Shown here: positions 27,696-63,789 of the stretch, one piece after another
Layout of the letters: each line of letters starts with the position of its first letter
Position numbering within the stretch: the stretch's first letter is position 1
NCBI GenBank assembly: GCA_035547395.1
Contig: DASZVA010000010.1
Location: 74,471-138,470, forward strand
DNA length: 64,000 nt
Direction of reading: 5' to 3'
Source: Candidatus Peribacteraceae bacterium
GTDB taxonomy: Bacteria > Patescibacteriota > Gracilibacteria > Peribacterales > Peribacteraceae
Position numbers and translations under genes: made by a program
Notes under the pieces: generated by a model
The model's database searches: none
What the model was told of the DNA's origin: nothing
What the model saw: the letters and a program-made list of their open reading frames with translations, nothing else

Positions 27696-27741
27696 GGTAG
27701 GATGAGGATTGGGATTAGGGTTAGGGTTGGAGAATAGCAGA

Positions 27742-30651
27742 TTACTGATTCGCTTTCGGCTCCACGTTGACATCGAATTGCGTCAGCACCAGATCGCCGT
27801 GATCGAGGAACTGACCGTCGACAACGTAGACACCCGGCACAGGGAACACGACGTACGCCTGCATGGTCGGGCCGAACTGATCGGGTAAGAAAATATGCGG
27901 ATTGAGCAGCGGATCCACCGGATTGAAAATGGAGTCGAGAAACGACTGCGGCAGAATTGGATGCGTGTGCTGATATTGCGTAAGATCGTCTTTGATGACG
28001 GCAATATGCATCGGCGCGGACAGATACGGCTGCAGCGTCGTCACGGGCTTGCCGTCTTTGGTGATCGTGTAATCCAGACGTTCGATGGTATTCGCATGCA
28101 GATCGCCGTACACCGGATCCAATGTCACGTCATATCCATCGAAATTTTTCGTGAGTGATAAATCGGGAGTGAAGGTGCCGATGGAGGGCGAGCCGGCGAC
28201 ATGCACGATGAAATGCTGCGCGAACGTCTGCGAGCGTTCGGTGAAGTCGATGCCGACGAGGTACGTTCCCGCTTTCGGGAATGTGTAGTGAACGGGAAAC
28301 AAGGCATTCGTGAGCATCGACTGCGTGAGAGGTCCGCTGTCTTCCGCATGGATATGCGCATAGATCGTATGATCGGCACTCGTAACGACGATGTGCGCGA
28401 TACGATCATGTTCGCGCGTGAGATCGGTGATGGGGTTGCCGTCGCGATCAAGAATATGGAAGAGAAGCGTCGCGGGTTTTCCGGCGACCAGCTGAGCGGG
28501 ATCCATCGAGAAATGCGCGAGTGCGGACGCGGGACGCGTGAACCAATCGAAGGCGCGCTCGTCGATGAAGAAATATTGTCCCAGCCCCATGCCGAGCATG
28601 CAGCCCATCTGCGTGACGGATGACGTGATCTGTCCGTCGCGCTCGGGCGAACTCTCGTGCCATGCGCCGCCGTTTGCGATGCAGGCGCTTTCAAAATTTC
28701 CGTGATATCCCGCGACGGCGCCGCCGAGGAAAATCAGGCCGACGCAATAGACGACGCTCATGGTCAGAGATTCGCTCGTGAGCACCCGTCGCATCGGCAG
28801 AACGCGCGATGCTGCATGCACGGACCGCACATGCAGGGATCTGCTAAAGCGATACAGGATCCATCCGGCAATCAGCAAAAGAAGCGCGATGATCGAGAGA
28901 CTCAGTTCAAACCAGCCGAACGTACGTTTGCCGTCGGATGCATGAGCGGCGGCGATGTCCGACGGATTGTTGATGGCGAAGCGGGCGTTGGCGTCATAGG
29001 CATTCGGACGCCGCGCGGTGACGGAGACGGTCCAGTGTCCCTGCGGAGAGAGTGCGGATTTCGGGAATACGTATCCGCCGTCGAACTGCTGCGAAAGCGG
29101 CACGTCCACGGGTCCGATGCCGCGATCGGTGTTCGTGAGCGTCACGATCATGTCGCTGATGCTGTTTGTCTGACCGGTGCCGGTCGCGGTCACGAGGAAT
29201 TGATTCTGCTCGGACGGATACTCGCTGAACGTCAGCCGCAATCCCTGGCTCATCGCCGACTGACCGTACTCATGCTCTCTCGGCAGCGGAGGGGTGGTGA
29301 TGATGAGCAGGCTGGAGAGAAACAACACGCCGAGACCGACGAACATTTCAAACGTGAACGCATACCAGACGGCATTGTGCGTGAGCGTGCGATAGCCGGC
29401 CTTCGATTGCGTTTCATCGAAAAACGCGCGATCGATGTGCAACTGCGCGATCAGCCGGAAGACGATGAGCAGAACCGTGAATGCGGAGAGCCCATAAAAC
29501 GCCGTCCCCCACGCGGTGACCGCGAGATTTGCGGGATTCTGCAGATGCAGCCAGATGACGTAGAGTCCGCTGATGCCGCCCGTGATGAGCATGACGGAAA
29601 GCAGCGCGGAGACGCCGGTCAGCGTCATCGCAAAATCCTTCGCGTCTTTGCGCCGGTACAAAAGCGGCAGAAAAATACACACGAGCACCGTCAGCGCGCC
29701 GATCCACAGATCTTTCGACAACAAATGAATCCAGTTGATAACGATCGATAGAAACGGATGAAAATCCGCGGCCGCCGCATGGCTCACGCGCGTGCGGATC
29801 CATGCCTCAATGATCAAAAGCAACCACAGCAGACCTTCGATTCCTGTGAAACGCGTCGCGCGCAGAACGGACTTCAAGAAAACAAAGAACAACACAACGA
29901 AAACTGCATCGATGATCAGCCGGACCGCATCGTAGAAACCGGCCGTCGTTCCGATGAAGATGGAAATGGCCTGCGCAAAAGTCATACTCTCGTCGGATGC
30001 ATACGTCTGACTTTCGAGAAGCAGATGACACACGGAACCGATCGCGATCAGCAGGACTCCGACGACGCCGAATATCAGGAAGCGTCGCGCATACGATCGT
30101 CGCAGCGGATCATCTGCATCCGCACTCAGACGCCTGCGCCAGCAGAGCTGATGCAACGCAAAGAGTCCGAGCAGCATCGCCTGACCAATGAGCTCGATCC
30201 AGATCGTGATCGCCTGCGGAATATCCGTCTCGTGTTCGATCTGAAACGACGTCGATGATTCGGGCAGAAGTCCGGTCTGCGCTCCGACCGAAAACACGAA
30301 CGCGCCTTTGGTGAAGTGTCCGTCATCGGCGGAAATCACGGACCACGACACCGTGTAGGTCCCGGATCCGTCCGCATGCATCGGCACAGTGAGCCCGTAG
30401 CCGCTCGACGCATCGACCGTCGCGGGTCCACTCTGCACCTCGGACCCGCCCGGACCGTAGACGATGATCGTGCTTGCCGACGGTTCGACGTGTTCGCTGA
30501 ATTTGATATGCACGCTCGCAGGCGCCGTCTGCAACACGGCGGACGCGGGCGGATCGTACTGCAGCGGCGTGGCGTGCGCACTGACGGAAGCCGCGCTGAG
30601 AAGCAGCACCGCTCCGAGCAGCAGGCCGGGCATAGTCGACAGACGACGCAT
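27742..30651 (-). CDS. CopC-CopD fusion copper-resistance/uptake protein (YcnJ-like) with extra C-terminal extracytoplasmic domains (969 aa)
   Basis: Signal peptide, then a CopC domain (HATPLQYDPPA...VSWSVISADDGHFTKGAFVFSV). A multi-TM CopD-like region follows, then a YtkA/FixH-like Ig domain, two more TM helices, and two related His-containing beta-sandwich domains (AHIVVTSADHTIYAHIHAED; LTQYQHTHP). Confidence 0.8.
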   Translation of the reverse strand: MRRLSTMPGLLLGAVLLLSAASVSAHATPLQYDPPASAVLQTAPASVHIKFSEHVEPSASTIIVYGPGGSEVQSGPATVDASSGYGLTVPMHADGSGTYTVSWSVISADDGHFTKGAFVFSVGAQTGLLPESSTSFQIEHETDIPQAITIWIELIGQAMLLGLFALHQLCWRRRLSADADDPLRRSYARRFLIFGVVGVLLIAIGSVCHLLLESQTYASDESMTFAQAISIFIGTTAGFYDAVRLIIDAVFVVLFFVFLKSVLRATRFTGIEGLLWLLLIIEAWIRTRVSHAAAADFHPFLSIVINWIHLLSKDLWIGALTVLVCIFLPLLYRRKDAKDFAMTLTGVSALLSVMLITGGISGLYVIWLHLQNPANLAVTAWGTAFYGLSAFTVLLIVFRLIAQLHIDRAFFDETQSKAGYRTLTHNAVWYAFTFEMFVGLGVLFLSSLLIITTPPLPREHEYGQSAMSQGLRLTFSEYPSEQNQFLVTATGTGQTNSISDMIVTLTNTDRGIGPVDVPLSQQFDGGYVFPKSALSPQGHWTVSVTARRPNAYDANARFAINNPSDIAAAHASDGKRTFGWFELSLSIIALLLLIAGWILYRFSRSLHVRSVHAASRVLPMRRVLTSESLTMSVVYCVGLIFLGGAVAGYHGNFESACIANGGAWHESSPERDGQITSSVTQMGCMLGMGLGQYFFIDERAFDWFTRPASALAHFSMDPAQLVAGKPATLLFHILDRDGNPITDLTREHDRIAHIVVTSADHTIYAHIHAEDSGPLTQSMLTNALFPVHYTFPKAGTYLVGIDFTERSQTFAQHFIVHVAGSPSIGTFTPDLSLTKNFDGYDVTLDPVYGDLHANTIERLDYTITKDGKPVTTLQPYLSAPMHIAVIKDDLTQYQHTHPILPQSFLDSIFNPVDPLLNPHIFLPDQFGPTMQAYVVFPVPGVYVVDGQFLDHGDLVLTQFDVNVEPKANQ

Positions 30652-30664
30652 GAACGAACCGATG

Positions 30665-31375: not shown

Positions 31376-31464
31376 GGAAACACGGGAAAAGTATGCAGCA
31401 GTTGTATAACGACTGATGACAAAAAACAAATGACAGGAATATTGTTATATTTAAATAAATATTG

Positions 31465-31470
31465 TATAAT
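31465..31470 (+). promoter_or_regulatory. TATAAT -10 box 7 nt upstream of ATG 31478 (leaderless-type geometry)
   Basis: attgTATAATataaaatATG, read directly. Confidence 0.35.
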
Positions 31471-31477
31471 ATAAAAT

Positions 31478-31987
31478 ATGAAACGATATGCAATCGGAGT
31501 GATTCTCAGCTTTTCTCTCTGCACTACGTCCGCCTTTGCCTGTGCGGGAGGACTCGATTTCCAGAAGGAGAGCGGATTGTACAAAGTGGATGTGACGGAC
31601 GATACGCCCATGATCCTGCCTTTGATGGACGTGCATTTCGATTACGGACTCATCAATGTGTCCGATCCCGCATACGGCCCGGATGACGAAGTGTCTTATT
31701 CCAGCGTCGAAGCATCGATCACACACGGGAAGGATGTTATTTTTGATCAGAAACTTGCGATGCAGCCGTACCGTGAATTGAACGGCTTTGCGTTCAAATT
31801 TCCCAAGGCGAATGCGAGTGATGTGCTGCATGTGCGATTTTTGAAAAATCAGACGCTCATGGCGTCCGCCGATTTTCCGCTAACGGTCGGCTCGGGCGAT
31901 CCCACGCTCTTCACTCTCCAAAACGGCGTGATTGCGATTATTTGCCTGCTTGCTCTGGCGCTCATAGTGCGAAAGAAGATGGGCTAA
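31478..31987 (+). CDS. hypothetical secreted protein with a C-terminal TM anchor
   Basis: Signal peptide (VILSFSLCTTSAFA), a domain of about 120 aa, and a C-terminal TM helix (VIAIICLLALALIV) plus RKKMG. Divergent from the YcnI-like gene. Confidence 0.6.
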   Translation: MKRYAIGVILSFSLCTTSAFACAGGLDFQKESGLYKVDVTDDTPMILPLMDVHFDYGLINVSDPAYGPDDEVSYSSVEASITHGKDVIFDQKLAMQPYRELNGFAFKFPKANASDVLHVRFLKNQTLMASADFPLTVGSGDPTLFTLQNGVIAIICLLALALIVRKKMG

Positions 31988-32026
31988 AGGACGGCGTCTG
32001 CTGACTTTTGCAATGCGTCTGCCATT

Positions 32027-32049
32027 TTATTGCAAATAATTTGCAATAA
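32027..32049. promoter_or_regulatory. perfect 11-1-11 palindrome TTATTGCAAAT-A-ATTTGCAATAA upstream of znuA; candidate Zur (Fur-family) operator
   Basis: Read directly. It contains two TTGCAA cores at 32030 and 32041. A third core at 32008 gives spacings of 22 and 11 nt. It lies 62 nt upstream of ATG 32111, and the operon itself encodes a Fur-family regulator. Confidence 0.55.
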
Positions 32050-32110
32050 GTAAACAGATGCATTAGTGTGCTCACGCACATGGTTTTCCTTTATCCATTT
32101 CCCTTTTTCC

Positions 32111-33858: not shown

Positions 33859-33861
33859 TCC

Positions 33862-34680
33862 ATGGAGATTCTGAGTATTTTTCATTACGAGTTCATGATC
33901 CGCGCCTTCATCGCGGGGATCATCACGGCGGTCATCGCGCCGATGATCGGTATTTTCCTGGTGACGCGGCGCTACTCCTACATGGCAGACACGCTGTCGC
34001 ATGTGTCTCTGGCGGGCGTCGCGATCGGATACCTGACGGGCACCCAGCCGATCATCATGGCCATGGTTGTCTCGGCCGCAGCCGCGGTCTCGGTCGACCA
34101 GATCCGCATGAAGCGAAAGGTGTTCGGGGATTCGGCACTCATTCTCTTTCTATCGGGCGGACTCGCGGTGGCGGCGGTATTGCTCAGTATCTCTCGCGGA
34201 CTCAACGTCGATCTTTCAAGCGTGCTCTTCGGCAGCATTGCGACGGTGAATTCCACAGACATCAACATCATAGCCGTACTGGGCGTCTTGGTGATCGCGA
34301 CCATTCTCTTGTTCTACAAGGAACTGGTGTCGATCTCGTTTAATGAAGAACTGGCTGCGGCTGCCGGGCTCCGCGTGACCCTGATCAACCGTATTCTCGT
34401 GGTTCTCGCAGCCGTCACGGTATCGCTTTCCATGCGCATCGTCGGCATTCTCCTCATCGGTGCATTGATGGTGATCCCCGTGCTCGCGGCAATGCAGTTC
34501 AGTCGCGGGTTTAGGACGACGCTTCTGATCGCCATCGCCATTTCCCTCTTTTCCGTCATCACGGGTCTGTTCATTTCCTATTATCTCGATTTCTCTAGCG
34601 GGGGTACGATCGTGCTGATCGCCATCGCCATTTTCCTTGCGGCGGCTCTTCGTCCCGGCAGAAAGCACGCGGGCTCCTGA
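33862..34680 (+). CDS. metal ABC transporter permease (ZnuB-like, ABC-3 family)
   Basis: 272 aa, polytopic. Starts 3 nt after znuC. The family is assigned from operon position and the TM pattern. Confidence 0.8.
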   Translation: MEILSIFHYEFMIRAFIAGIITAVIAPMIGIFLVTRRYSYMADTLSHVSLAGVAIGYLTGTQPIIMAMVVSAAAAVSVDQIRMKRKVFGDSALILFLSGGLAVAAVLLSISRGLNVDLSSVLFGSIATVNSTDINIIAVLGVLVIATILLFYKELVSISFNEELAAAAGLRVTLINRILVVLAAVTVSLSMRIVGILLIGALMVIPVLAAMQFSRGFRTTLLIAIAISLFSVITGLFISYYLDFSSGGTIVLIAIAIFLAAALRPGRKHAGS

Positions 34681-34695
34681 TCCAGTTCTTCTCTC

Positions 34696-35121: not shown

Positions 35122-35135
35122 AGCACCACCTCTTC

Positions 35136-36311: not shown

Positions 36312-36363
36312 TTCACGGAAAAGCGACACATTCTCCTTTCTTTTTCCTCTATAATTCCATTCC

Positions 36364-37721: not shown

Positions 37722-37765
37722 TTTATGCAGATGTTGTCTGAAAAAGAAAGATGGGTTAGTGGTTT

Positions 37766-37816
37766 TTAGTTATTAGTTATTGGTTCATCAGCATACAACC
37801 AATAACCAGTAACCAA
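37766..37816. terminator. long imperfect hairpin between convergent genes, built from heptamer repeats
   Basis: The left arm tagttattagttattggtt pairs with the right arm aaccaataaccagtaaccaata. The right side is (AACCAAT)-like x4 (37797..37824). On the minus strand a T-rich tract (ctttcttttt) follows the hairpin. Confidence 0.4.
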
Positions 37817-37831
37817 TAACGAATAACCTGT

Positions 37832-38436: not shown

Positions 38437-38463
38437 CCGGCTGTTTTCTGCCTCATCAGAAAA

Positions 38464-38736: not shown

Positions 38737-38905
38737 ATGAAGAGAAGGAAAGAAATAAATGCAAGTTGTCTGCTTGCCGTATTTGCCGACGAATGGGCAT
38801 ATGCTTTCTTACAGTCTTTCTCTTGCATAAATCCCACCATATTTCGAAGATTTTTTACGTTCGTGTCCGTATCAAAATACGACCCGATACGGGTATGCTG
38901 ACGTC

Positions 38906-41807: not shown

Positions 41808-41891
41808 CTCGCGCTCCTTGCCACATATGTTAAAAAACGGACAATGACGTTTGATTATTGTGAAACTCCTATTTCCATTGTCAAATCCTAT

Positions 41892-43688: not shown

Positions 43689-43823
43689 GGAGATAGGCGG
43701 AAAGAGAATTGCCGAATCAGGCAAAAATGATAGCCGAATTCGCAAAAGAAAGACTGGCGTACAGCGCATCTTCATCGTGCAATGCGCGATCTCTCAATAC
43801 GTGTTTTGACATAGTCTTTTTAT

Positions 43824-43882: not shown

Positions 43883-44320
43883 ATGAAATCTTCCCACGAC
43901 GACATCGTCAGCCTCGCTCTCGACCTCAGCAGACATCTGCGCCGCAGATTGCTTGCCTGCGGCAAGGACGGTACCAGCTTCATGCGCAGCCATGCGCTTG
44001 CAATCATCAAGGAAAGCGACAACCCGACGATGAAGGATTTTGCGACGAGCATGAAAATTTCCGCATCATCCGCCACCGCGTTCATCGACCGTCTCACGAA
44101 AGAAGGATGGGTGAAGCGCGTGCCGGATCCCAAGAACCGCAAGATTATCCATCTGAAAATCACGCCCAAGGGGAATCGCATCATCGCGCAGAGCATGCAG
44201 GACAAACGCGCGTTTCTCCGCGACATCCTGACGCTTCTTTCCACGGATGACCGCAAACATCTCGAGCACATTCTTCAGTCTCTCCAGAGCGCATTGGCGC
44301 AGAACCCTTCCCACTCATAA
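43883..44320 (+). CDS. MarR family transcriptional regulator
   Basis: About 145 aa with a winged-helix core (TMKDFATSMKISASSATAFIDRLTKEGWVKRVPDPKNRKIIHLKITPKG). Start trimmed to ATG 43883. Confidence 0.85.
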   Translation: MKSSHDDIVSLALDLSRHLRRRLLACGKDGTSFMRSHALAIIKESDNPTMKDFATSMKISASSATAFIDRLTKEGWVKRVPDPKNRKIIHLKITPKGNRIIAQSMQDKRAFLRDILTLLSTDDRKHLEHILQSLQSALAQNPSHS

Positions 44321-44324
44321 GTCT

Positions 44325-45005: not shown

Positions 45006-45011
45006 TCCCCC

Positions 45012-46520
45012 ATGTCCGCAGCGAGCGCTCACACAACCGGCGGGAAACCACCGGTCCATCGCGGACTCATTCTTTTGACGGTGATCGTCGGCACGTTTCT
45101 CGGCCGTCTTGATCAGACGATCGTCAATCTGGCGCTGCCGAAAATCATCAATGATTTCAGTATCACGGTCAGCTCCGCCGGATGGATCGCGACGGCGTAC
45201 ATCCTAGCCAACGCCGTTTTCGTGCCGATCTGGGGAAAGCTGGGTGACACGATCGGACGCAAGAAAGTGTATCTTGCGGGATTCATCATGTTCATCGTCG
45301 GTTCGCTTCTTGCGGGGCTCTCGTGGAATTTGCCGTCGATGATCGTCTTTCGCGTGATCCAGGCGATCGCGGGATCCGCCGACTATCCGACCGCGATGGC
45401 GATCCTCACCGTCACCTACACCACCAACAAAGAACGCGCGCAGGCGCTCGGCATCTGGTCGTCCGCGTTCGCGGTCTCCGCCGTGCTCGGGCCGCTGATC
45501 GGCGGACCGCTCATCGACAACTTCAGCTGGAGAGCGGTGTTTCTCATCAACGTGCCGATCGGCATCATCGGCATTCTGATGGCAATGGCGTTCATCCGGG
45601 AATCCGTCTCGGAGAAAAAGACACACAAGTTTGACGTGCCCGGCGCGCTCGCGCTCGGCATCTGCCTGTCGAGCATCGTGCTCGTGCTCGACAAGGGCAT
45701 GGATTGGGGATGGGTCTCCGTCGGTTCCGTCCTTTGTTACATCACGGCGATCGTCTCGCTCATCGTCTTCATCATTCTGGAGCAGCGGCATCCAGAGCCG
45801 ATCGTCGACCTCAAATTTTTCAAGAACAAAATCTTCACGCAGACGCTGCTCAATAACTTCATCATCTTCATGGGCATGATGGGATCGGTGTTCCTCATCC
45901 CCGTTTTCTCGCAGACCTTCCTCGGTTACGACGCGACGCAGAGCGGATTGCTCTTCGTGCCGATGGCGTTCGCGTTGATGCTGGCCGCGCCTCTCGGCGG
46001 GCGCCTGACGGACAGCGTCCAGCCGCGATACGTGATCATGGCGAGCACGATCGTCGCGGCGCTCGGGCTGTATTTGTTCTCTTTTATCGATGCGCGATCC
46101 GGTGCCTGGGATATCATGGGGCCGCTCAGCATTATGGCGTTCGGCATGGGATTCGGGATGGCGCAACGCACGAACGTGATTGCCGCAGCGGTTCCCAAAC
46201 AGGAAATCGGCATGGCATCGTCCGTACTCGCACTCGCGCGCAACGTCGCCGGTGCGTTCGGAGTTGCGATCTTTGCCACGCTCCTCAATTCCAGCATCGA
46301 ACACAACGTGCTCGTCATCAACCAGTACAGCCAGTTCCACGGCACGACGCCCGCGGAGTACCAGCAGTATGTCTCGCTCATCACGTTGAAGGCGCAGATC
46401 GACGGCTACAAAACAGTCTTCGTGGTCTCGAGCATCCTGGTCTTCATCGGCGGTTTGCTCTCATGGTTCATCGGCGATGTGAAACTGAAGAAGGGCGTGG
46501 AAGTGCACGTCGAGGCCTGA
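45012..46520 (+). CDS. MFS transporter, DHA2 (EmrB/QacA) 14-TMS drug-efflux family
   Basis: LDQTIVNLALP, GKLGDTIGRKKVY (motif A), 502 aa. Confidence 0.85.
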   Translation: MSAASAHTTGGKPPVHRGLILLTVIVGTFLGRLDQTIVNLALPKIINDFSITVSSAGWIATAYILANAVFVPIWGKLGDTIGRKKVYLAGFIMFIVGSLLAGLSWNLPSMIVFRVIQAIAGSADYPTAMAILTVTYTTNKERAQALGIWSSAFAVSAVLGPLIGGPLIDNFSWRAVFLINVPIGIIGILMAMAFIRESVSEKKTHKFDVPGALALGICLSSIVLVLDKGMDWGWVSVGSVLCYITAIVSLIVFIILEQRHPEPIVDLKFFKNKIFTQTLLNNFIIFMGMMGSVFLIPVFSQTFLGYDATQSGLLFVPMAFALMLAAPLGGRLTDSVQPRYVIMASTIVAALGLYLFSFIDARSGAWDIMGPLSIMAFGMGFGMAQRTNVIAAAVPKQEIGMASSVLALARNVAGAFGVAIFATLLNSSIEHNVLVINQYSQFHGTTPAEYQQYVSLITLKAQIDGYKTVFVVSSILVFIGGLLSWFIGDVKLKKGVEVHVEA

Positions 46521-48587: not shown

Positions 48588-48635
48588 GGGGGAGAGGGGA
48601 AGATGTGGGTTAGTATAACCGGAGAGGTTGAGTAT

Positions 48636-48722
48636 GTTTAGTAGGATTTGTAGGTTTAGTACGTCGATTCATGTAATCATATCAAGCCTACTAAACGCCC
48701 CAAGCCTACCATGCCTACTAAA
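48636..48722 (-). promoter_or_regulatory. nested or alternative hairpins built from TAGTAGG/CCTAC repeats, spanning the sdpI-like stop codon
   Basis: tttagtagg-attt-gtagg (48637..48654) pairs with cctac-catg-cctactaaa (48705..48722). Alternatively, gtttagtagg (48636..48645) pairs with cctactaaac (48687..48696). Confidence 0.4.
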
Positions 48723-49374: not shown

Positions 49375-49375
49375 A

Positions 49376-50490: not shown

Positions 50491-50537
50491 GCAATCGCTG
50501 AGTCTACACGTTTTTATCGCGCTTGAGAATCTGATAC

Positions 50538-51590: not shown

Positions 51591-51612
51591 TGTCATCCAT
51601 TCCCTTCTTTTT

Positions 51613-52632: not shown

Positions 52633-52704
52633 AATGTTACGGGTGAAAGAAATAAAAACCGTGTGTACACATACGCATTGTATGGACCGGTCTTTAAGAA
52701 CCGC

Positions 52705-53886: not shown

Positions 53887-53887
53887 A

Positions 53888-54550: not shown

Positions 54551-54713
54551 CGTCTTTCAGAATAAAGAGCGTCCATTAAGGACGGATTAAGAGTATAAAA
54601 CAAATGCCGCGGGATGGATCGTCAATATCTTGTGAAGTTTTTGGCAAGTACATCGCGGTAAGCGAGGCGGGGGAATCGCGTCACAGAAGGTGTTATCCCT
54701 TCTTCCCTTTTCG

Positions 54714-54956: not shown

Positions 54957-54959
54957 GCG

Positions 54960-56213: not shown

Positions 56214-56338
56214 CTCTTGGAAAATGCAAATAATGAGCGTTCAGTATAGCTGCTTCAATGCCTGAAAGATACGCAGATGTGCAGGGAATCAAGCCGGATG
56301 TATAAACGCCCCTAGACTTCCTTTGCGGTCGTTTTATC

Positions 56339-57370: not shown

Positions 57371-57422
57371 AGATATACGGAAAAAGGAGGCCATCGTACT
57401 CATATCTTTCATTCATGCAAGA

Positions 57423-59316: not shown

Positions 59317-59337
59317 GAGGAAGAATCGTGAGGAGAA

Positions 59338-61407
59338 TTATCCGCCGCCGCCTCTGAAGCCGCCTCCTCCGCCTCCTCTCGTGAACGTCGCGCCGCCGCC
59401 GAAACCGCCCCCTCCGCCCAAGCGGAAGATCTGCGCGTTGGGATTCTGGCCGTTGCTGCTCGTCTGGTACTGCGAGATATTGAGCGACTGAATCTGCTGT
59501 CCTTCCGTCAGACCTGATGTGATTTCGGTGTACTGGCCATCCGTCGCACCGGTCTTCACGGGAACCAGCTGCCCGCTCGAAAGCCGCACCGACGCGTTGC
59601 TTCCGTTCCACTGCAGTGCGAGGTTCGGCACGGCGAGGACGTTCTGCGCGCTCGCGGTCGTGATCGTCACCGTTGCCGTCATGCCCGACAGGATCGTCAT
59701 GTTGTCCGGTGTCGGCAGTTTGATCGCGACGTTGTACGACACGACGCCCGACTGTTGCACGGGAGTGGAATCGATGGAATCGACGCTGCCCTGGAACGTC
59801 TTTCCGGGAATCGCGTCGAACGCGATGATTGCCGGCATGCCCGCTTTCACGTTTACGACGTCCACCTGATCAAGCGGTACCGTCACCACGGTCGTGCCGG
59901 TGTTCTGGATCTCGAGCATCTCGGTGGTGTTTCCCGTGTCGAGCAGGTTGTCGCCGACTTTGTAATCGAGGTGGCTGATCGTGCCGTCGAAGGGCGCGAC
60001 GAGTTCGTAATTCTCGAGGGATTTTTCGGTGCTTTGCAGCGACGTCACAGATTGCGCGATCGCGTTCTGCTTGAGCGCGATCTGCACGTCGAGATCGGTG
60101 TTGGTCGAGTTGGCGTTGAGCTGCTGAGCCTTGTAGGCGTTCTGCGCCTGATCAACCGCCTGCTGTTGCTGCGTGAGCGTCGCGGGATTGGACGTCTGCA
60201 GTTCCTTCAGATTTTCCTGCGCCGTCGTCAGATCGTTCTGCGCCGTCGTCACCGCGTCTTCCGCCGCCTTGAGCGTCACGCTCGGAATGCCGCCATTACT
60301 TGACGTCGCGGCGAGATCCGCCTGCGCCGTTTCCACCTGGGAAACCAGACTGGATGCCGATGAAATGTTTCCGCTCACGGTTGATCGGCTGGTATTCACA
60401 TCGCTCGCGGTGAAATTCGATGTGTCGACGGTCGCGCCCTGCATCATCGAATACGTGTCCTCTCCGAGCATGTAGATGTCTTTCGCGAGCGTGTCCGCGT
60501 CGGCGAGCGCTTTCACCAGCGTCTCGGGATCCTGCTGCGTCGCGAGCGAGGATCCGTAATTTTGATGCATCGCATTCGCCGCGTTGATGGCGTTCAGATA
60601 ATCGTTCTTCACGGTGCGCGCGAGATTCGGATCGTTGTACAGAAGATTGTCGATGGTGAGGTCGTAATTTCCCTGCGTCGGGCGCGCGGCGGTGCCACGG
60701 GTGAGAATGCTGTAGAAGGAATCGAGTAGTTTGTCGGATGTGGAAAGAGACGTCTGCGCGGTGGTCGCGAGCGTGAGGATCTCCGAGCTCTTCGCCTTGG
60801 TCAGATTCAGCTGCGCCTGCGTGAGCGCGGTCTGTTTTTCCTGCACGGCGCGCTGCGCGGACGCCAGATCGGACGGGAGCTTCTGCTGCGTGACCGCGAG
60901 ATTGTTCTGCGCCTGCGTCAGTTGCTGCTGCGATTGCGTGAGTGAATTCTGTGCGCTCTGGATCTGTCCGTTCTTGTCCGCCTCGAGCTGCTTGAGCTGC
61001 AGCTCCGCCGCCGAGATCGAGAGCTGCTGCTGGCGGATCTGCGCCTGCACGCTCGCATCATCAAGCTTGGCGATGACGTCGCCTTTCTTCACGGCGTCTC
61101 CCACTTTGAAGTTCACCGCCGTCACGGTTCCCTTTTGATTGAACTGCATCTGCTGTTCGTTCGAGAACGTCACGTTGCCCGTTGCGTTGATCGAGGACGT
61201 AATCGTTCTGCGCGCGACCGTCGCGATGCTTTGCACGGGCGTTTGCGCCTGCGTCTTCCCCTGCGCGAACGCCATGTATCCGCCGCCGAGCGCAATCGAG
61301 AGGATGAGCCCCACCAGATAATTGGAGAGCGACACTCTGCGCAATTTCTGTTGCAAACTCAGCGGCAGAGAGCTGAACGGATGCCGGATGATTGACAGAA
61401 GTTTCAT
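59338..61407 (-). CDS. HlyD/MacA-family periplasmic adaptor with a greatly expanded helical insert and a Gly-rich C-terminal tail (689 aa)
   Basis: TM anchor, a lipoyl-like half (GTVTAVNFKVGDAVKKGDVIAKLDD), about 360 aa of Q/A/T/L-rich helical sequence, the second lipoyl half (LVAPFDGTISHLDYKVGDNL), barrel domains, and the tail GGGGGFGGGATFTRGGGGGGFRGGGG. Start trimmed to ATG 61407. Confidence 0.75.
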   Translation of the reverse strand: MKLLSIIRHPFSSLPLSLQQKLRRVSLSNYLVGLILSIALGGGYMAFAQGKTQAQTPVQSIATVARRTITSSINATGNVTFSNEQQMQFNQKGTVTAVNFKVGDAVKKGDVIAKLDDASVQAQIRQQQLSISAAELQLKQLEADKNGQIQSAQNSLTQSQQQLTQAQNNLAVTQQKLPSDLASAQRAVQEKQTALTQAQLNLTKAKSSEILTLATTAQTSLSTSDKLLDSFYSILTRGTAARPTQGNYDLTIDNLLYNDPNLARTVKNDYLNAINAANAMHQNYGSSLATQQDPETLVKALADADTLAKDIYMLGEDTYSMMQGATVDTSNFTASDVNTSRSTVSGNISSASSLVSQVETAQADLAATSSNGGIPSVTLKAAEDAVTTAQNDLTTAQENLKELQTSNPATLTQQQQAVDQAQNAYKAQQLNANSTNTDLDVQIALKQNAIAQSVTSLQSTEKSLENYELVAPFDGTISHLDYKVGDNLLDTGNTTEMLEIQNTGTTVVTVPLDQVDVVNVKAGMPAIIAFDAIPGKTFQGSVDSIDSTPVQQSGVVSYNVAIKLPTPDNMTILSGMTATVTITTASAQNVLAVPNLALQWNGSNASVRLSSGQLVPVKTGATDGQYTEITSGLTEGQQIQSLNISQYQTSSNGQNPNAQIFRLGGGGGFGGGATFTRGGGGGGFRGGGG

Positions 61408-61435
61408 AGGATCTGAAAGAAAAGTGAAACGCGCA

Positions 61436-61807
61436 TCAGGACGCGGAAGATATGGAAGACGATGATGGTGATCCGTTTCCATGCGGATGCGTGCCGCTGC
61501 CGCTTACGCCGACATTCGTTCCGCTTCCGGTTCTCTGACCGCCTCCGAACGTTGTGCCGTTTTCCTGCATGATCTGCTGGATCGTTTTGCCGCTCTGCAG
61601 TTCCTTCTGCAATTGGTCCTGGCTGATGCCGAGACGCTGCGAGAGGCGCGCGAGATTCGGCGTGCCGTTTTGGCCGAATCCGCCGCCGCGCGCGTATGCA
61701 CCTTGTGCGCTTACCGGGTGGATCAGATGATTCACGCCGGAAAAAAGCGCGAGGACAACAAGTCCGGATGCGACTCCCAATCCAAAAGAACCGAAACGGA
61801 TTTTCAT
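61436..61807 (-). CDS. small secreted protein (123 aa) sharing a 32-aa motif with the ORF at 51928..52632
   Basis: Signal or TM segment GLGVASGLVVLALF, the motif LSQRLGISQDQLQKELQSGKTIQQIMQENGTT, and a G/S-rich tail. First gene of the MacAB-like operon. Start trimmed to ATG 61807. Confidence 0.55.
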   Translation of the reverse strand: MKIRFGSFGLGVASGLVVLALFSGVNHLIHPVSAQGAYARGGGFGQNGTPNLARLSQRLGISQDQLQKELQSGKTIQQIMQENGTTFGGGQRTGSGTNVGVSGSGTHPHGNGSPSSSSISSAS

Positions 61808-61965
61808 AGCAGCAAAAACAGAAAATACGCTCTTAGTATAGAGGAAGCAGATTAAGAAGAATTTAAGAACAGAATCCGGAAAAGAATGCAAGAATCCTTG
61901 CCTGTTTCAGGAAAACGATGCCGGACAATCTGCCCTTTTGCATCTGCTTGCGATATGATAGCGAC

Positions 61966-62433
61966 ATGCGCATCGATCTCACTTTCGAACAATGTGAAGA
62001 CATTCTCAAGCAGCAGCACTACGGACATCTTGGTTGCTGCATGGACGGCGAACCGTATGTCGTACCCGCGACGTACGTCTATAAATACGGGTATCTCTAC
62101 AGCTTCACGCACGACGGACAAAAAATCGCGATGATGCGCAAACATCCGTCGGTCTGTCTGCAGGTCGAGTGCGTGCGCAGCGGATATGATTGGGAGAGCG
62201 TCATTTGTTGGGGAAAATTTGAAGAAATCACCGATGAACAAGAGAGGCATGAAATAGAGCTTCTTCTCGCAGATCAATACGCGAAGGTCACGACCGAGAG
62301 CGATGAGCTGCCCGTCTCGCCGCTCATCCAGGAGCTCAACGAACAGAAAAAAGACGACGTGAAAAAGAGCGTCGTCTATCGCATCAACATTCAGAAGACG
62401 ACCGGGAAAGCGGAGAGGCCGAAGAAGTCATAA
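61966..62433 (+). CDS. pyridoxamine 5'-phosphate oxidase family (flavin-binding split-barrel) protein
   Basis: ILKQQHYGHLGCCMDGEPYVVPATYVY..GYLYSFTHDGQKIAMMRKHPSVCLQVE......WESVICWGKFEEITDEQER fits the Pyridox_ox_2-type pattern. Start trimmed to ATG 61966. Confidence 0.75.
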   Translation: MRIDLTFEQCEDILKQQHYGHLGCCMDGEPYVVPATYVYKYGYLYSFTHDGQKIAMMRKHPSVCLQVECVRSGYDWESVICWGKFEEITDEQERHEIELLLADQYAKVTTESDELPVSPLIQELNEQKKDDVKKSVVYRINIQKTTGKAERPKKS

Positions 62434-62437
62434 GTTG

Positions 62438-62473
62438 AAAAAGTCCGCTCCCGTTTTGGATGGCGGACTTTTT
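62438..62473. terminator. bidirectional rho-independent terminator between convergent genes
   Basis: AAAAAGTCCGC (62438..62448) / GCGGACTTTTT (62463..62473). The A and T tracts flank the GC core on both strands. Confidence 0.7.
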
Positions 62474-62500
62474 CTGTTACCCCTTCCGATCGATGCGACG

Positions 62501-63703
62501 TTAAAAATCGTACGCCTCTTCGCCGTGCAGCATGCGGTCCAGGCTTTCCTGCTCCTCTTTGAGATTTACTTTCAGAGACATGAACATCTGAATGATATTG
62601 AGAAGCACCCATGTTCCGACGAACGCGAAGACGACGGCGATGGTCGTGCCTTCCAGGTTGGCGATGAATTGGTGCGTGTTTCCCTCCAGCAACCCCGACA
62701 CTCCGCCGACGGATTTGGCGGCGAAGACGCCCGTCAGAATCGATCCGATCACGCCGCCGATTCCGTGGCATCCCCACACGTCGAGCGCGTCATCCCACTG
62801 CATCCATGCCCGGAACTTCATCGCGCAGAAGCAGCCGAGCGTCGCCGCAATGCCGATGATGAGCGATCCCATCGGCGTCACGTAACCGGCTGCGGGCGTG
62901 ACCGCGACAAGGCCGGCGACGGCACCCGTGAGAGCGCCCACGATGCTCGGGCGCTTGTCGACGATCCACGAGAGCAGAAGCCACGCGACCATCGCCATGG
63001 CGGGTGCGACCTGCGTATTCACGAACGCCGCCGCCGCCTGACCGTTCGCAGCCAAGGCGCTGCCCGCGTTGAATCCGTACCATCCGAACCAAAGCAGCGC
63101 GACACCGAGCGCGACGAATGGAATGTTGTGCGCCTTCTGTTCCATGCTCTTGCGCTTCCCGAGCACGAAGACCGATGCCAATGCCGCAAAGCCGGAGCTA
63201 ATGTGCACGACGGTTCCTCCCGCGAAATCGATCGCGCCGATCTTGGAAATGAAACCGCCGCCCCAGACCCAGTGCGCCAGCGGCGCGTAAATCACGATGC
63301 TCCAGAGCGTGAGGAAAATCAGATAACTTTTGAAGTTCATGCGGTCGACGAATGCGCCCGTGATGAGCGCCGGCGTGATGACCGCGAACATCAGCTGAAA
63401 GACAAAGAAGGCGAGGAACGGAACGGTCGTGCCGTAGCTTGTCGACGGATCAAGTCCGACGCCCTTCATCCACGCGTAATCGAGTCCGCCGATGAATCCG
63501 CCGTGATCCGGACCGAATGCGAGCGAGAACGTGAGGATCGACCAGACGACCGTCACGATGCCCATCGCGATGAAACTCTGCATGACGACGCTTAAGACGT
63601 TCGTGCGCTTCACGAGTCCGCCGTAAAAGAAGGCGAGGCCCGGCGTCATGATCGCGACGAGCGCCGCACTGATGAGAACGAATGATGTGTCACCGGAATT
63701 CAT
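62501..63703 (-). CDS. amt: ammonium transporter (Amt family)
   Basis: FAGGTVVHISSGFAALA, DDALDVWGCHGIGGVIG, 11-TM pattern. Confidence 0.9.
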   Translation of the reverse strand: MNSGDTSFVLISAALVAIMTPGLAFFYGGLVKRTNVLSVVMQSFIAMGIVTVVWSILTFSLAFGPDHGGFIGGLDYAWMKGVGLDPSTSYGTTVPFLAFFVFQLMFAVITPALITGAFVDRMNFKSYLIFLTLWSIVIYAPLAHWVWGGGFISKIGAIDFAGGTVVHISSGFAALASVFVLGKRKSMEQKAHNIPFVALGVALLWFGWYGFNAGSALAANGQAAAAFVNTQVAPAMAMVAWLLLSWIVDKRPSIVGALTGAVAGLVAVTPAAGYVTPMGSLIIGIAATLGCFCAMKFRAWMQWDDALDVWGCHGIGGVIGSILTGVFAAKSVGGVSGLLEGNTHQFIANLEGTTIAVVFAFVGTWVLLNIIQMFMSLKVNLKEEQESLDRMLHGEEAYDF

Positions 63704-63789
63704 AGGAGAAGTGGTAAGTGGATAGTGGTAAGTGGTAAGTGATAAGCGATTTGGTCAGTGACTATCCACTAGCCACTGACCACTGGTCA
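63704..63789 (-). promoter_or_regulatory. structured glnA-amt intergenic leader: a hairpin plus five tandem heptamers forming a G-free leader
   Basis: A 9-bp stem pairs 63752..63760 with 63774..63782. Plus-strand heptamers GTGGTAA/GTGGATA/GTGGTAA/GTGGTAA/GTGATAA span 63711..63745. The hairpin-loop sequence (63761..63770) is perfectly complementary to the leader at 63717..63726. Confidence 0.4.

What the first reader, a model, noticed from the sequence alone, without database searches (positions are those of the whole stretch)
27696..63746. G-free, C/U-rich leaders replace Shine-Dalgarno sequences upstream of many start codons
At least 17 start codons are immediately preceded by 18-43 nt that contain zero to two G residues and are rich in CTCC/TTCC/CCTC. 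Leaders are given in mRNA sense.

Leaders with no G, or with a long G-free proximal run:
- dedA 27695: ctattctccaaccctaaccctaatcccaatcctcatcctacc, 42 nt, no G
- amt 63703: cttatcacttaccacttaccactatccacttaccacttctcct, 43 nt, no G
- 36364: acacattctcctttctttttcctctataattccattcc, no G
- znuA 32111: ttttcctttatccatttccctttttcc
- 38128: caatcccttccccccacttctt
- 38736: catttatttctttccttctcttcat
- 51613: tcatccattcccttcttttt
- 48587: the 26 nt next to the ATG are G-free

Leaders with one or two G: 59316, 43688, 54714, 44325, 35136, 34696, 61407, 57370, 31375.

Only one gene (STAS, 41807) has a canonical AAGGAG. These leaders resemble the anti-SD sequence rather than its complement, so 16S pairing cannot explain them. 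In a GC-rich genome, 40-nt G-free runs are very unlikely by chance. The signal also picks out biologically sensible start sites: signal peptides begin at the chosen Met, and RHG sits near the N-terminus. This points to a non-SD initiation mode, such as an unstructured pyrimidine-rich standby or S1-binding leader, that standard gene callers would mis-model.
Basis: seen in the sequence. Interest (0 to 1): 0.65.

Follow-up and report, generated by a model that had tools for sequence, protein, structure and literature searches.

The report
G-free pyrimidine leaders replace Shine-Dalgarno
This window comes from a Peribacteria-type (Candidate Phyla Radiation) bacterium, a group already known to have lost the ribosomal anti-Shine-Dalgarno sequence; its genes start either with no leader at all or behind a short, nearly guanine-free, C/U-rich leader that probably works as an unfolded landing pad for the ribosome.

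Summary
All 18 quoted leaders reproduce exactly. G-free runs of 40 nt or more occur 6 times, against 0.14 in shuffles. G is depleted only in the ~25 nt before start codons, and only on the mRNA strand.

Amt homologues at 70% identity or more are named Peribacteria or Peregrinibacteria. In that lineage the 16S tail is published as GAACACUUCCUUA (CCUCC changed to CUUCC) and it is classed as "SD-scarce". So loss of SD is already known. I found no publication on what replaces it.

Across ten loci of the lineage (218 starts) there are two start contexts:
- About 30% of genes have a sigma-70 -10 box (TAnAnT, with TTG 17 nt upstream) 6-10 nt before the ATG.
- 28% of the remaining genes have 2 or fewer G in the 25 nt before the ATG. 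They are C/U-rich, often with UUCCC(C/U) at -15..-9, and efp, glnA and amt orthologues keep this although the sequence has diverged.

These leaders are predicted to be unpaired (0.72 against 0.42). They pair worse than controls with the canonical 16S tail.

One lead remains open. All 69 Peribacteria-type 16S genes found carry an invariant CCAGGGAA just past the canonical 3' end, and GGGAA is the complement of UUCCC.

The parts
27696..27737 (-). 42-nt G-free C/U/A leader. It fills almost the whole 46-nt spacer between the CopC-domain gene (27742-30651) and dedA/VTT (ATG 27695).
   Evidence: Pfam VTT_dom
63704..63746 (-). 43-nt G-free leader of amt (ATG 63703), made of CCACTTA-like heptads and ending in cttctcct.
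   Evidence: It stays unpaired in the MFE fold. Amt orthologues in nine relatives all have G-free C/U leaders of unrelated sequence.
63752..63782 (-). Stable hairpin (GGUCAGUGGCUAG...CUAGUCACUGACC) between the glnA stop (63790-63792) and the amt leader.
   Evidence: MFE -32.6 kcal/mol, z = -3.1. Analogous hairpins precede the G-free tract in L082 and L090.
36326..36363 (+). 38-nt G-free tract before the second YibE/F gene (ATG 36364). It contains TATAAT at -14..-9, so it may be promoter DNA for a leaderless transcript.
   Evidence: Pfam YibE_F
32084..32110 (+). 27-nt G-free leader of znuA (ATG 32111), with TTTCCCT at -12..-6.
   Evidence: Pfam ZnuA
38737..38761 (-). 25-nt G-free leader of a 54-aa SPW-repeat protein (ATG 38736).
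48588..48618 (-). 31-nt G-free stretch before a 123-aa membrane protein (ATG 48587). TATACT at -30 implies a 5'UTR of roughly 17-20 nt that is entirely G-free, with CTTCCCC at -15..-9.
51593..51612 (+). 20-nt G-free intercistronic spacer before a 60-aa ORF (ATG 51613), with CATTCCC at -15..-9.
59317..59337 (-). 21-nt intercistronic spacer (ttctcctcacgattcttcctc, one G) between the HlyD-like gene and the ABC ATPase gene (ATG 59316).
43689..43712 (-). C/U-rich leader (2 G in 24 nt) of the DsbD-thioredoxin gene. The start at 43688 matches Met1 of the orthologue.
   Evidence: The BLASTP alignment begins at query residue 32 and subject residue 5.
54691..54713 (+). C/U-rich leader (2 G in 23 nt) of a Transgly_assoc gene (ATG 54714).
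44300..44324 (+). Leader of the HlyD gene (ATG 44325), 2 G in 25 nt.
35122..35135 (+). 14-nt spacer (agcaccacctcttc) between fur and the first YibE/F gene (ATG 35136).
34681..34695 (+). 15-nt spacer (tccagttcttctctc) between the ABC-3 permease gene and fur (ATG 34696).
61408..61435 (-). 28-nt spacer (3 G) before the long HlyD-like gene (ATG 61407).
57371..57391 (-). Leader of the histidine phosphatase gene (ATG 57370), 2 G in 21 nt. The RHG motif lies at residues 16-18.
31376..31395 (-). Leader of a secreted 236-aa protein (ATG 31375), 2 G in 20 nt.
52633..52659 (-). Leader of a 234-aa secreted protein (ATG 52632), 2 G in 27 nt, with TTCACCC at -15..-9.
45006..45011 (+). 6-nt intercistronic spacer, TAA-tccccc-ATG, before the MFS gene.
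31465..31470 (+). TATAAT box 7 nt upstream of ATG 31478: a leaderless-type start, the second start mode.
   Evidence: Lineage-wide -10 box peak at -15..-12. Promoter architecture.
38894..38899 (+). TATGCT box 6 nt upstream of ATG 38906 (lipoprotein): a leaderless-type start.
50501..50506 (-). TAGACT box 10 nt upstream of ATG 50490 (lipoprotein): a leaderless-type start.
41814..41819 (-). Canonical AAGGAG 6 nt upstream of the STAS gene (ATG 41807): the exception in the window.

Best explanation
The window belongs to a Peribacteria/Peregrinibacteria (CPR) bacterium. Ribosomes of this lineage have lost the CCUCC anti-SD core (the 16S tail is GAACACUUCCUUA).

Genes therefore start in one of two ways that do not use SD:
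1. Many genes are transcribed from a sigma-70-type promoter whose -10 box lies 6-10 nt before the ATG. Their mRNAs have no leader.
2. Where a 5'UTR or an intercistronic spacer exists (about 17-45 nt), selection keeps it almost free of G and rich in C and U.

An RNA without G cannot form G-C or G-U pairs and cannot contain AUG, GUG or UUG. The start codon therefore sits at the 3' edge of a single-stranded tract with no competing start codon, and the 30S subunit (or a terminating 70S ribosome) can load there without an SD helix.

A positioned UUCCC(C/U) element at -15..-9 in the best-conserved cases suggests an extra specific contact with the ribosome. The partner is unknown.

What is shown: the composition, its anchoring to the ATG, its conservation across the lineage, the absence of SD, and the predicted lack of structure. 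What is inferred: that this drives initiation, and through which ribosomal component.
For: Taxonomy:
- All named Amt homologues at 70% identity or more are Candidatus Peribacteria, Peregrinibacteria or Gracilibacteria.
- The closest GTDB representative, L002, is labelled Peregrinibacteria.

Anti-SD loss:
- PMC10783764 Table 4 and its S4 table, and the PMC6107228 S4 table, give the Peribacteria tail as GAACACTTCCTTA and class the lineage as 'SD-scarce'.
- I recovered 69 metagenomic 16S genes with this tail. Rfam places the end of the SSU model exactly at ...CCTTA.

No SD:
-.

G depletion is anchored at the ATG, on the mRNA strand only, and limited to about 25 nt:
-.

Lineage-wide:
- L002, L082, L085, L087, L090, L091, L161, L163 and L164 show the same pattern.
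- 43 of 152 starts without a -10 box have 2 or fewer G in 25 nt. The decoy rate is 1.7%.

Selection acts on composition, not sequence:
- amt, glnA and efp leaders are G-free and C/U-rich in every relative, while their primary sequence is unalignable.

The feature acts at the RNA or translation level:
- Whole intercistronic spacers, from stop codon to ATG, are G-poor. Examples: L087 amt (45 nt, 0 G), L085 amt (38 nt, 1 G), and window 27695, 51613, 59316 and 45012.

Predicted accessibility:
- P(unpaired) over -20..-1 is 0.72, against 0.42 for decoys, p = 1e-13.
- The amt leader stays unpaired next to a strong hairpin.

Positioned motif:
- TTCCC starts at -17..-13 in 15 of 152 starts. Six control windows of the same width hold 0-1 each.
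- CCC peaks at -13..-11.

Precedent:
- Bacteroidetes control loci show the same G depletion (0.07-0.14) but are filled with A.
Against: - There is no experimental or transcript data. TSS positions and 5'UTR lengths are inferred from -10-like boxes only.
- Low predicted structure follows almost automatically from removing G, so it does not independently prove that lack of structure is what is selected.
- NTG triplets are not depleted beyond what G depletion itself predicts (139 observed against 145 expected).
- Only about 20% of all lineage starts fall in the G-poor class. About half of the starts show neither signal.
- Some G-free tracts lie where no 5'UTR is expected: upstream of a -10 box (48621-48661), in 3' regions (3514-3544, 37739-37785), or spanning a TATAAT (36326-36363).
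- A purely structural explanation does not account for the preference for C/U over A. A lower-GC relative (L089) uses A/C-rich G-poor leaders.
- It does not account for the position-specific UUCCC either.
Confidence: 0.55

Rival explanations
1. An inverted Shine-Dalgarno. The mature 16S rRNA of Peribacteria extends at least 8 nt beyond the canonical end (...CUUCCUUA-CCAGGGAA). Its purine block AGGGAA acts as a new anti-SD that pairs with a pyrimidine 'SD', UUCCCU, 8-9 nt upstream of the AUG. The surrounding G-free composition keeps this element exposed.
For: - In 69 metagenomic loci with the Peribacteria 16S tail, the 8 nt right after the Rfam-defined 3' end are CCAGGGAA.
- Among 39 distinct downstream sequences, +1..+8 are at least 97% conserved, as conserved as the rRNA itself. 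Conservation collapses after +11.
- GGGAA is the exact complement of TTCCC. TTCCC is the most enriched 5-mer in G-poor leaders (16 observed against 6.5 expected).
- TTCCC is also the most position-specific 5-mer, starting at -17..-13, an SD-like distance.
- Duplex energies with CCAGGGAA dip at -18..-12 (-3.2 against -2.3 kcal/mol). The true order ranks 2nd of 20 permutations of AGGGAA.
- The 5' arm is invariant while its possible pairing partner varies, and that partner is absent or weak in 6 of 39 sequences.
- No complement lies in the 16S 5' leader.
Against: - In most loci CCAGGG can pair with a downstream CYCUGG to form a local hairpin (22 of 39 perfect). The block may therefore be a pre-rRNA processing or terminator element that is removed or kept paired.
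- The mature 3' end is unknown.
- Only 10-16% of starts without a -10 box carry TTCCC or TCCC at the right place, and the energy dip is shallow.
- Given pyrimidine-only leaders and a purine block, matching the top 5-mer has roughly a 6% chance.
- The leaders never extend the complementarity into ...UGG, because they lack G.
- The 16S gene of the window's own genome was not seen.
Confidence: 0.15
2. The tracts are promoter DNA, not mRNA. All these genes are leaderless or nearly so. The G-poor, C/T-rich non-template strand (spacer, discriminator, or a -10 variant such as TTCCCC for another sigma factor) is a transcription-level feature.
For: - The lineage relies heavily on leaderless promoters, even within tight gene arrays.
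- The 36364 tract contains TATAAT at -14..-9.
- The 41-nt run at 48621-48661 lies upstream of a -10 box.
- Starts with a -10 box are also C-rich at -6..-1 (C = 0.37; CCC at -3 in 18%).
Against: - G-free tracts often begin right at the stop codon of the upstream gene and fill very short spacers (TAAtcccccATG, TGAtccATG).
- Several leaders have a good -10 box at about -30, which puts the G-free tract inside the transcript.
- The TTCCC/CCC motif at -15..-9 is absent from starts that carry a -10 box (0.00 at -15..-10). Its position is fixed relative to the ATG whether or not a promoter is nearby.
- No -35-like partner was seen.
Confidence: 0.1
3. The tracts serve a regulatory function rather than an initiation function. 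C-rich, G-poor, unstructured RNA is the signature of Rho utilisation sites, or of binding sites for a poly(C)/pyrimidine-binding protein. The tracts would couple transcription to translation of the downstream gene (polarity or attenuation).
For: - Composition with C well above G, and predicted single-strandedness.
- Placement in intercistronic spacers after regulated genes (glnA-amt), next to hairpins.
- A KH/R3H (Jag-like) protein and CsrA are encoded in relatives.
Against: - The tracts are 20-45 nt, shorter than typical rut sites (own knowledge: about 70-80 nt).
- They end exactly at the start codon.
- They occur before housekeeping genes such as efp in every relative.
- Neither the presence of Rho nor any binding protein was tested.
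Confidence: 0.07
4. The pattern is a neutral compositional or mutational artefact of intergenic DNA (strand-biased mutation, low-complexity repeats) with no function.
For: - Some G-free runs lie away from starts.
- The amt leader is a heptad repeat, which could arise by slippage.
Against: - The depletion is confined to about 25 nt upstream of starts, on the sense strand. It is absent downstream of stops and further upstream.
- It far exceeds shuffles and decoys.
- It is conserved at orthologous genes across relatives whose GC content ranges from 0.46 to 0.56 and whose leader sequences have otherwise diverged.
Confidence: 0.03

Closest known systems
SD-independent initiation in Bacteroidetes (GeneMarkS-2 'group B'; Flavobacterium johnsoniae; Baez et al. 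2019; Jha et al. 2021, PMC7797042)
   Same: - SD motifs are almost absent.
- The signal lies upstream of both first and operon-internal genes.
- G is strongly depleted in the last 20 nt (0.07-0.14 in my Bacteroidetes control loci, 0.07-0.18 here).
- Reduced secondary structure around the start is a positive determinant.
   Different: - Bacteroidetes leaders are A-rich (A = 0.4-0.5, with A at -3, -6, -12 and -13). Here A is 0.21-0.25 and C+T is 0.61-0.68.
- Most Bacteroidetes keep CCUCC and hide it with bS21, bS18 and bS6. Peribacteria have mutated the core to CUUCC, and Peregrinibacteria frequently lack bS21 (PMC9297842).
- About 30% of genes here are leaderless, which is not a Bacteroidetes trait.
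Leaderless-mRNA genomes (GeneMarkS-2 'group C': Actinobacteria, Deinococcus-Thermus; PMC6028130)
   Same: - A Pribnow-type box (TAnnnT) lies 6-10 nt upstream of the start in about 30% of genes.
- TTG lies 17 nt upstream of the box.
- The published enriched upstream motif of Ca. Peribacter riflensis is TACACT (PMC6107228 S4 table).
   Different: - In group C the leadered and internal genes use SD sites. Here they use G-free C/U leaders, and the anti-SD is lost.
- The G-free leaders themselves are not leaderless starts.
S1-dependent, pyrimidine/U-rich translational enhancers (E. coli S1 target sites; cyanobacterial and chloroplast rbcL and psbA leaders). Cited from my own knowledge: Boni 1991; Mutsuda and Sugiura 2006.
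   Same: A single-stranded pyrimidine-rich tract just upstream of the start codon supports initiation without SD pairing.
   Different: - Those elements work alongside an intact anti-SD and a long (6-domain) S1. Most CPR bS1 proteins have 3-4 domains (PMC9297842).
- They are U- or A/U-rich rather than C-rich.
- S1 involvement was not tested here.
TMV omega leader acting as an SD substitute in E. coli (own knowledge: Gallie and Kado 1989)
   Same: A leader of about 65 nt, virtually free of G and unstructured (CAA repeats), drives SD-independent translation in bacteria.
   Different: - It is a viral element that is A/C-rich.
- It acts in a host with a normal anti-SD.
- It is not a genome-wide strategy.
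SD-less leadered mRNAs of haloarchaea (own knowledge: Hering et al. 2009, Haloferax volcanii)
   Same: The genome is dominated by leaderless transcripts, and the leadered minority lacks SD and uses an unknown mechanism.
   Different: - It is an archaeal system.
- No G-free or pyrimidine signature has been reported for it.
- The anti-SD is retained.

Membership tests
Shine-Dalgarno-led initiation | A purine-rich GGAGG-like motif 5-10 nt upstream of most start codons | tested here: not met
   - SD-like 4-mers lie within -20..-1 of 5% of window starts and 0% of L002 starts, against 30-82% in SD-using control loci.
- The rate is 9.6% against 12.9% for decoys in 218 lineage starts.
- Only STAS has AAGGAG.
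Shine-Dalgarno-led initiation | A 16S rRNA 3' tail containing CCUCC | tested here: not met
   - The window holds no rRNA gene.
- For the lineage, the published tail is GAACACTTCCTTA.
- 69 metagenomic 16S genes with that tail were recovered, and the Rfam SSU model ends at ...CCTTA.
- That the window's own genome has this tail is inferred from phylogeny.
Shine-Dalgarno-led initiation | Favourable mRNA-tail duplex energy upstream of starts, relative to background | tested here: not met
   Mean duplex energy with CACCUCCUUA or CACUUCCUUA is weaker at starts (-0.6 to -1.3) than at internal ATG decoys (-1.4 to -1.7 kcal/mol).
Leaderless mRNA starts (GeneMarkS-2 group C) | A -10 promoter box about 6-10 nt upstream of the start codon, with a -35 element at 17-nt spacing | tested here: met
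   - Met by 66 of 218 lineage starts (decoys 2.3%). TTG is enriched 22-24 nt upstream of the box, and the box-to-ATG spacer is 6-10 nt.
- Not met by the G-free leaders themselves, except possibly 36364.
Leaderless mRNA starts (GeneMarkS-2 group C) | The transcription start coincides with the start codon | not testable with these tools
   No transcript data are available. Leaderless status is inferred from promoter geometry only.
Bacteroidetes-type non-SD initiation (group B) | The same non-SD upstream signal before both first and operon-internal genes | tested here: met
   G-poor leaders occur after co-directional genes at 60 nt or less (13 of 61), at 61-200 nt (14 of 45), and after divergent genes (13 of 88).
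Bacteroidetes-type non-SD initiation (group B) | An A-rich leader (A at -3, -6, -12, -13) | tested here: not met
   - A is 0.21-0.25 at -20..-1, against 0.39-0.52 in Bacteroidetes loci.
- Per-position A is 0.07-0.37.
Bacteroidetes-type non-SD initiation (group B) | The canonical anti-SD is retained but sequestered by bS21, bS18 and bS6 | tested here: not met
   - The anti-SD core is mutated in the lineage.
- bS21 is reported as frequently absent in Peregrinibacteria (PMC9297842). I did not check the protein complement myself.
S1-dependent pyrimidine-rich enhancer / standby site | A single-stranded pyrimidine-rich tract next to the start codon | tested here: met
   C+T is 0.61-0.87 in the tracts. 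P(unpaired) is 0.72.
S1-dependent pyrimidine-rich enhancer / standby site | Dependence on ribosomal protein bS1 with mRNA-binding domains | not testable with these tools
   No rpsA gene lies in the sequences held. The literature says most CPR bS1 proteins have 3-4 S1 domains.
Rho utilisation (rut) site | A C-rich, G-poor, unstructured RNA of about 70-80 nt (length from own knowledge) | tested here: inconclusive
   The composition fits. The tracts are only 20-45 nt and end at the ATG. The presence of Rho is unknown.

The most novel reading that the evidence does not exclude
Peribacteria have not simply lost the Shine-Dalgarno interaction. They have reversed its polarity. The mature 16S rRNA would carry a lineage-specific 3' extension (...CUUCCUUA-CCAGGGAA). 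Its purine block AGGGAA would pair with a pyrimidine ribosome-binding site, UUCCCU, positioned 8-9 nt upstream of the AUG. The G-free leader would keep that site single-stranded. This would be the first natural case of a re-invented mRNA-rRNA initiation helix with swapped purine and pyrimidine strands.
Probability: 0.15. Interest if true: 0.9.

Novelty: new variant of a known kind. Interest (0 to 1): 0.55.

Why it matters
- **A third solution to initiation without SD.** How ribosomes find start codons without SD pairing is still unsettled outside Bacteroidetes and leaderless systems. Peribacteria combine a mutated anti-SD, frequent lack of bS21 and short bS1 proteins. The solution seen here is a leaderless default plus G-free pyrimidine leaders with a positioned UUCCC.
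- **Gene annotation.** Gene callers trained on SD or A-rich models misplace starts in these genomes. Examples are amt called at 425 aa in L090 against 400, and glnA called at 498 aa against 470. This distorts CPR protein catalogues, signal-peptide predictions and protein families.
- **Heterologous expression.** CPR genes in E. coli would lack a working ribosome-binding site.
- **A cheap experiment.** The conserved CCAGGGAA after the 16S gene gives a concrete hypothesis, testable by 3'-end mapping of rRNA in public metatranscriptomes. A positive result would be a notable finding in ribosome evolution.

Tried and rejected
1. **Is the amt leader the 3' arm of a long hairpin with the G-rich AGTGG repeats upstream?** Rejected. 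The MFE and centroid folds pair the upstream repeats with each other and leave the leader single-stranded. The upstream arm is absent in relatives.
2. **Known RNA families in the window.** None at gathering threshold.
3. **Do the leaders mimic the 16S tail (sense matches to GAACACTTCCTTA)?** The longest common substring is no better than for shuffled leaders (4.41 against 4.48).
4. **Start-codon (NTG) avoidance beyond G depletion.** Not seen.
5. **Unsupervised one-site-per-sequence Gibbs motif search on all leaders without a -10 box.** It gave only a diffuse TTTTCC motif with no preferred position. Most sequences lack the element, so targeted positional counts were used instead.
6. **Is CCAGGGAA the partner of the 16S 5' leader (an RNase III-type stem)?** No complement lies within 130 nt upstream of the 16S gene in 19 of 20 loci.
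7. **Gene calls next to the 16S loci, to enlarge the data set.** Only 46 genes resulted. My mask wrongly assumed a linked 23S gene, and Rfam found no LSU gene next to the 16S in L104 or L093. These genes were not used.
8. **Literature searches** for Patescibacteria or CPR combined with Shine-Dalgarno, translation initiation, leaderless or pyrimidine-rich. No description of these leaders was found.
9. One search repeated by mistake and added nothing.

Full report
**1. Observation**

I called 44 genes from codon statistics alone, without using upstream sequence. Pfam confirmed most of them: dedA/VTT, CopC, ZnuABC, Fur, two YibE/F genes, DsbD-thioredoxin, HlyD, MFS, a two-component system, a DEAD helicase, MacB/FtsX, Amt and STAS.

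A scan that ignored gene calls found 67 G-free runs of 20 nt or more on the two strands. Of the 14 runs of 27 nt or more, six end exactly at the AT|G of a called gene start. Runs of 40 nt or more occur six times, against 0.135 on average (maximum 2) in 200 shuffles that preserve local composition.

With the neutral rule 'first ATG of the ORF', the 25 nt upstream hold 4.6 G on average. For 971 internal in-frame start-codon decoys the figure is 7.4 (p = 1e-10). Six genes have no G at all, where a best-of-k null gives none. The depletion is local: G is 0.16-0.19 and pyrimidines are 0.61-0.64 at -20..-1. G returns to about 0.25 beyond -30, and is 0.22-0.25 after stop codons.

**2. Whose genome**

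The window is 56% GC and encodes a 6492-aa protein with Laminin_G_3 repeats. Among one genome per GTDB species, the best Amt match (73%) is a MAG labelled Candidatus Peregrinibacteria. Every other hit is about 50% identical.

In the large protein collection about 100 Amt homologues are at least 65% identical. All of the named ones at 70% or more are Candidatus Peribacteria, Peregrinibacteria or Gracilibacteria. One 87% relative sits on a 1.21-Mb contig. Ca. Peribacter riflensis genomes are 1.25 Mb and 58.5% GC (PMC4736985). The window therefore comes from a Peribacteria-type CPR bacterium.

**3. What is already known**

- Amin et al. 2018 (PMC6107228) and Estrada et al. 2024 (PMC10783764) list Peribacteria among organisms whose 16S tail lacks CCUCC. 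The tail is GAACACTTCCTTA, against the canonical GATCACCTCCTTA.
- They also class Ca. P. riflensis as 'SD-scarce' (7% of genes).
- Their motif search found only TACACT enriched before P. riflensis ORFs.
- Tsurumaki et al. 2022 (PMC9297842) report that Peregrinibacteria often lack bS21 and that most CPR bS1 proteins have 3-4 S1 domains.
- I found no paper describing what precedes start codons in these genomes.

**4. Absence of SD, with positive controls**

I ran the same gene caller and the same first-ATG rule on 70 loci from other phyla. SD-like 4-mers within -20..-1 were found in 30-82% of genes in SD-using taxa. The figure was 5% in the window and 0% in the closest relative, L002.

Bacteroidetes loci show equally low G (0.07-0.14), but with A at 0.4-0.5. 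The window lineage has G at 0.07-0.18, with C+T at 0.61-0.68 and A at only 0.21-0.25.

Duplex energies between the upstream sequence and either the E. coli tail or the Peribacteria tail are weaker at real starts than at internal ATGs.

**5. The lineage has two start contexts**

I fetched nine related loci with independent public gene calls: L002, L082, L085, L087, L090, L091, L161, L163 and L164. With the window they give 218 starts.

- *Leaderless class.* 66 starts (30%; decoys 2.3%) have TAnnnT beginning at -16..-12. The commonest forms are TACAAT, TACACT, TATACT, TATAAT and TAGACT, with A favoured at box position 4. G is favoured just upstream of the box, TTG is enriched 22-24 nt upstream (a 17-nt spacer), and 6-10 nt separate the box from the ATG. 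This is a sigma-70 promoter placed so that transcription should start at or next to the A of the ATG, giving leaderless mRNAs. It explains the published TACACT motif. Window examples are 31478, 38906 and 50490. Such boxes occur even in 7-21-nt spacers between co-directional genes.
- *G-poor class.* Of the 152 remaining starts, 43 have 2 or fewer G in -25..-1, and 16 have none (decoys 1.7%).

Orthologues keep their class. efp, glnA and amt have C/U-rich, G-free leaders in every genome, although the leader sequences cannot be aligned. def, rnt, folA, gatB and nth are of the leaderless type. This points to selection on composition, gene by gene.

**6. RNA level or DNA level?**

Several observations place the tract in the mRNA:
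- Whole intercistronic spacers are G-free from stop codon to ATG. Examples are L087 amt (45 nt, 0 G), L085 amt (38 nt, 1 G), and window dedA (46 nt, 1 G).
- Very short spacers are C/U-only: TAAtcccccATG at 45012 and TGAtccATG at 33862.
- Where a good -10 box exists, it often lies near -30. That implies a 5'UTR of about 17-20 nt that is entirely G-free. Examples are window 48587, glnA in L082, and efp in L087.

Against this, the 36364 tract spans a TATAAT at -14..-9, and the 41-nt run at 48621-48661 lies upstream of a -10 box. A promoter-level contribution therefore cannot be excluded for some tracts.

**7. A positioned element**

Among G-poor leaders, T dominates at -15/-14 and C dominates at -13..-9 (0.39-0.65). 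In all starts without a -10 box, CCC peaks at -13..-11 and TTC at -15/-14 (about 0.10 per position, against about 0.02 elsewhere upstream and 0.01 in decoys). Starts with a -10 box have none there.

TTCCC begins at -17..-13 in 15 of 152 starts. Each of six equal-width windows further upstream holds 0-1. Typical instances are TTTCCCC (efp, L082), TTCCCTC (glnA, L087), TTCCCCC (glnA, L090), CTTCCCC (window 48587) and CATTCCC (window 51613). The spacing to the ATG (8-9 nt) is SD-like.

**8. Structure**

In partition-function folds of -60..+60, positions -20..-1 are unpaired with probability 0.72 in G-poor leaders, against 0.42 around internal ATGs (p = 1e-13). The AUG itself is not more open.

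The amt spacer folds into a strong hairpin right after the glnA stop and leaves the 43-nt leader single-stranded. L082 and L090 have analogous hairpin-plus-G-free arrangements.

NTG triplets are not depleted beyond what G loss predicts. A G-free tract, by construction, contains no AUG, GUG or UUG.

**9. A lead from the rRNA**

Scanning metagenomes for the Peribacteria 16S tail returned 69 loci, including a 1,248,112-bp contig of P. riflensis size. Rfam ends the SSU model exactly at ...CCTTA.

In all but two loci the next 8 nt are CCAGGGAA. Among 39 distinct downstream sequences, +1..+8 are at least 97% conserved, as conserved as the rRNA itself. Conservation falls to background after +11.

GGGAA is the complement of the positioned UUCCC. 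Duplex energies with CCAGGGAA dip at -18..-12, and the native order ranks second of 20 permutations.

However, CCAGGG can also pair with a variable downstream CYCUGG. This forms a hairpin in most loci: 22 of 39 perfect and 6 of 39 poor. The mature 3' end is unknown. The motif is present in only 10-16% of starts without a -10 box. I rate an 'inverted SD' at about 15%.

**10. Verdict**

It needs three amendments:
- The loss of SD and anti-SD in this phylum is already published.
- Leaderless transcription is the other, more frequent, start mode.
- Pairing with 16S rRNA is excluded only for the canonical tail.

The G-free, C/U-rich composition with a positioned UUCCC appears to be an undescribed variant of SD-independent initiation. 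It is closest to the A-rich leaders of Bacteroidetes in logic, but differs in base composition, in the state of the anti-SD, and in its coexistence with leaderless starts.

Noticed in passing
L092-L160 (for example L104 4151-4158, minus strand): All 69 Peribacteria-type 16S genes are followed directly by an invariant CCAGGGAA. This is usually the 5' arm of a small hairpin (CCAGGG-AAnnn-CYCUGG). The block is as conserved as the rRNA itself, and the sequence diverges right after it.
   Followed up: partly
L104 and L093: Rfam finds the 16S gene but no 23S gene in the 4 kb or more held downstream. The rRNA genes therefore appear to be unlinked in these Peribacteria contigs.
   Followed up: no
window 3630-23108 (-) and 23105-26881 (-): A 6492-aa ORF with at least six Laminin_G_3 (ConA-like lectin) domains and a sialidase N-terminal-like stretch. 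It overlaps by 4 nt a 1258-aa ORF upstream. This is a giant surface-protein pair of the kind common in CPR genomes.
   Followed up: partly
window 31435-31483: A 49-nt G-free (minus strand), extremely AT-rich divergent region between ATG 31375 (-) and ATG 31478 (+), holding several overlapping TATAAT-like boxes. It is probably a bidirectional promoter.
   Followed up: no
window 63704-63746 (-) and 63752-63782 (-): The amt leader is built from five CCACTTA-like heptads. The hairpin upstream is built from complementary AGTGGNN heptads. The two sets could pair in several registers, although the MFE fold keeps them apart.
   Followed up: partly
window 37739-37785 (-); 3514-3544 (-); 3609-3633 (-): Long G-free, C-rich runs that are not next to any start codon. 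They lie in 3' or convergent intergenic regions: after the 37539-37721 gene on the opposite strand, and after the giant gene's stop. Unexplained.
   Followed up: no
window 41814-41819 (-); L091 about 19066-19072: The rare canonical SD motifs in this lineage sit before a STAS (anti-sigma antagonist) gene in the window and before csrA in L091 (caaaaggaggcgttATG). This recalls Bacteroidetes, where the few strong SDs are thought to be regulatory.
   Followed up: no
L090 8478/8562 and 10001/10082; L001 928; Amt homologues P0013, P0034, P0036, P0041, P0058, P0076, P0096, P0101, P0103: Public gene calls extend glnA and amt by 25-48 codons in some relatives. In L090 the shorter start is the one with the TTCCCCC leader. 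In L001 and L161 the longer glnA start itself has a C/U leader, so that extension may be real.
   Followed up: partly
L089 (Amt 72% identical, GC 0.43): A lower-GC relative has G-poor leaders that are A/C-rich rather than C/U-rich (for example ataaacccccaccaaatATG). G avoidance seems to be the constant feature, and the filler bases vary.
   Followed up: no
L082 8445-8455, L085 8511-8520, L087 8504-8513 (glnA upstream): A conserved AGGG(C/A)(T)ACATT lies about 30 nt upstream of glnA in three relatives. It may be a -10 region with a conserved upstream GGG, or a regulator site. A divergent TrmB-like gene lies next to glnA in all these loci.
   Followed up: no
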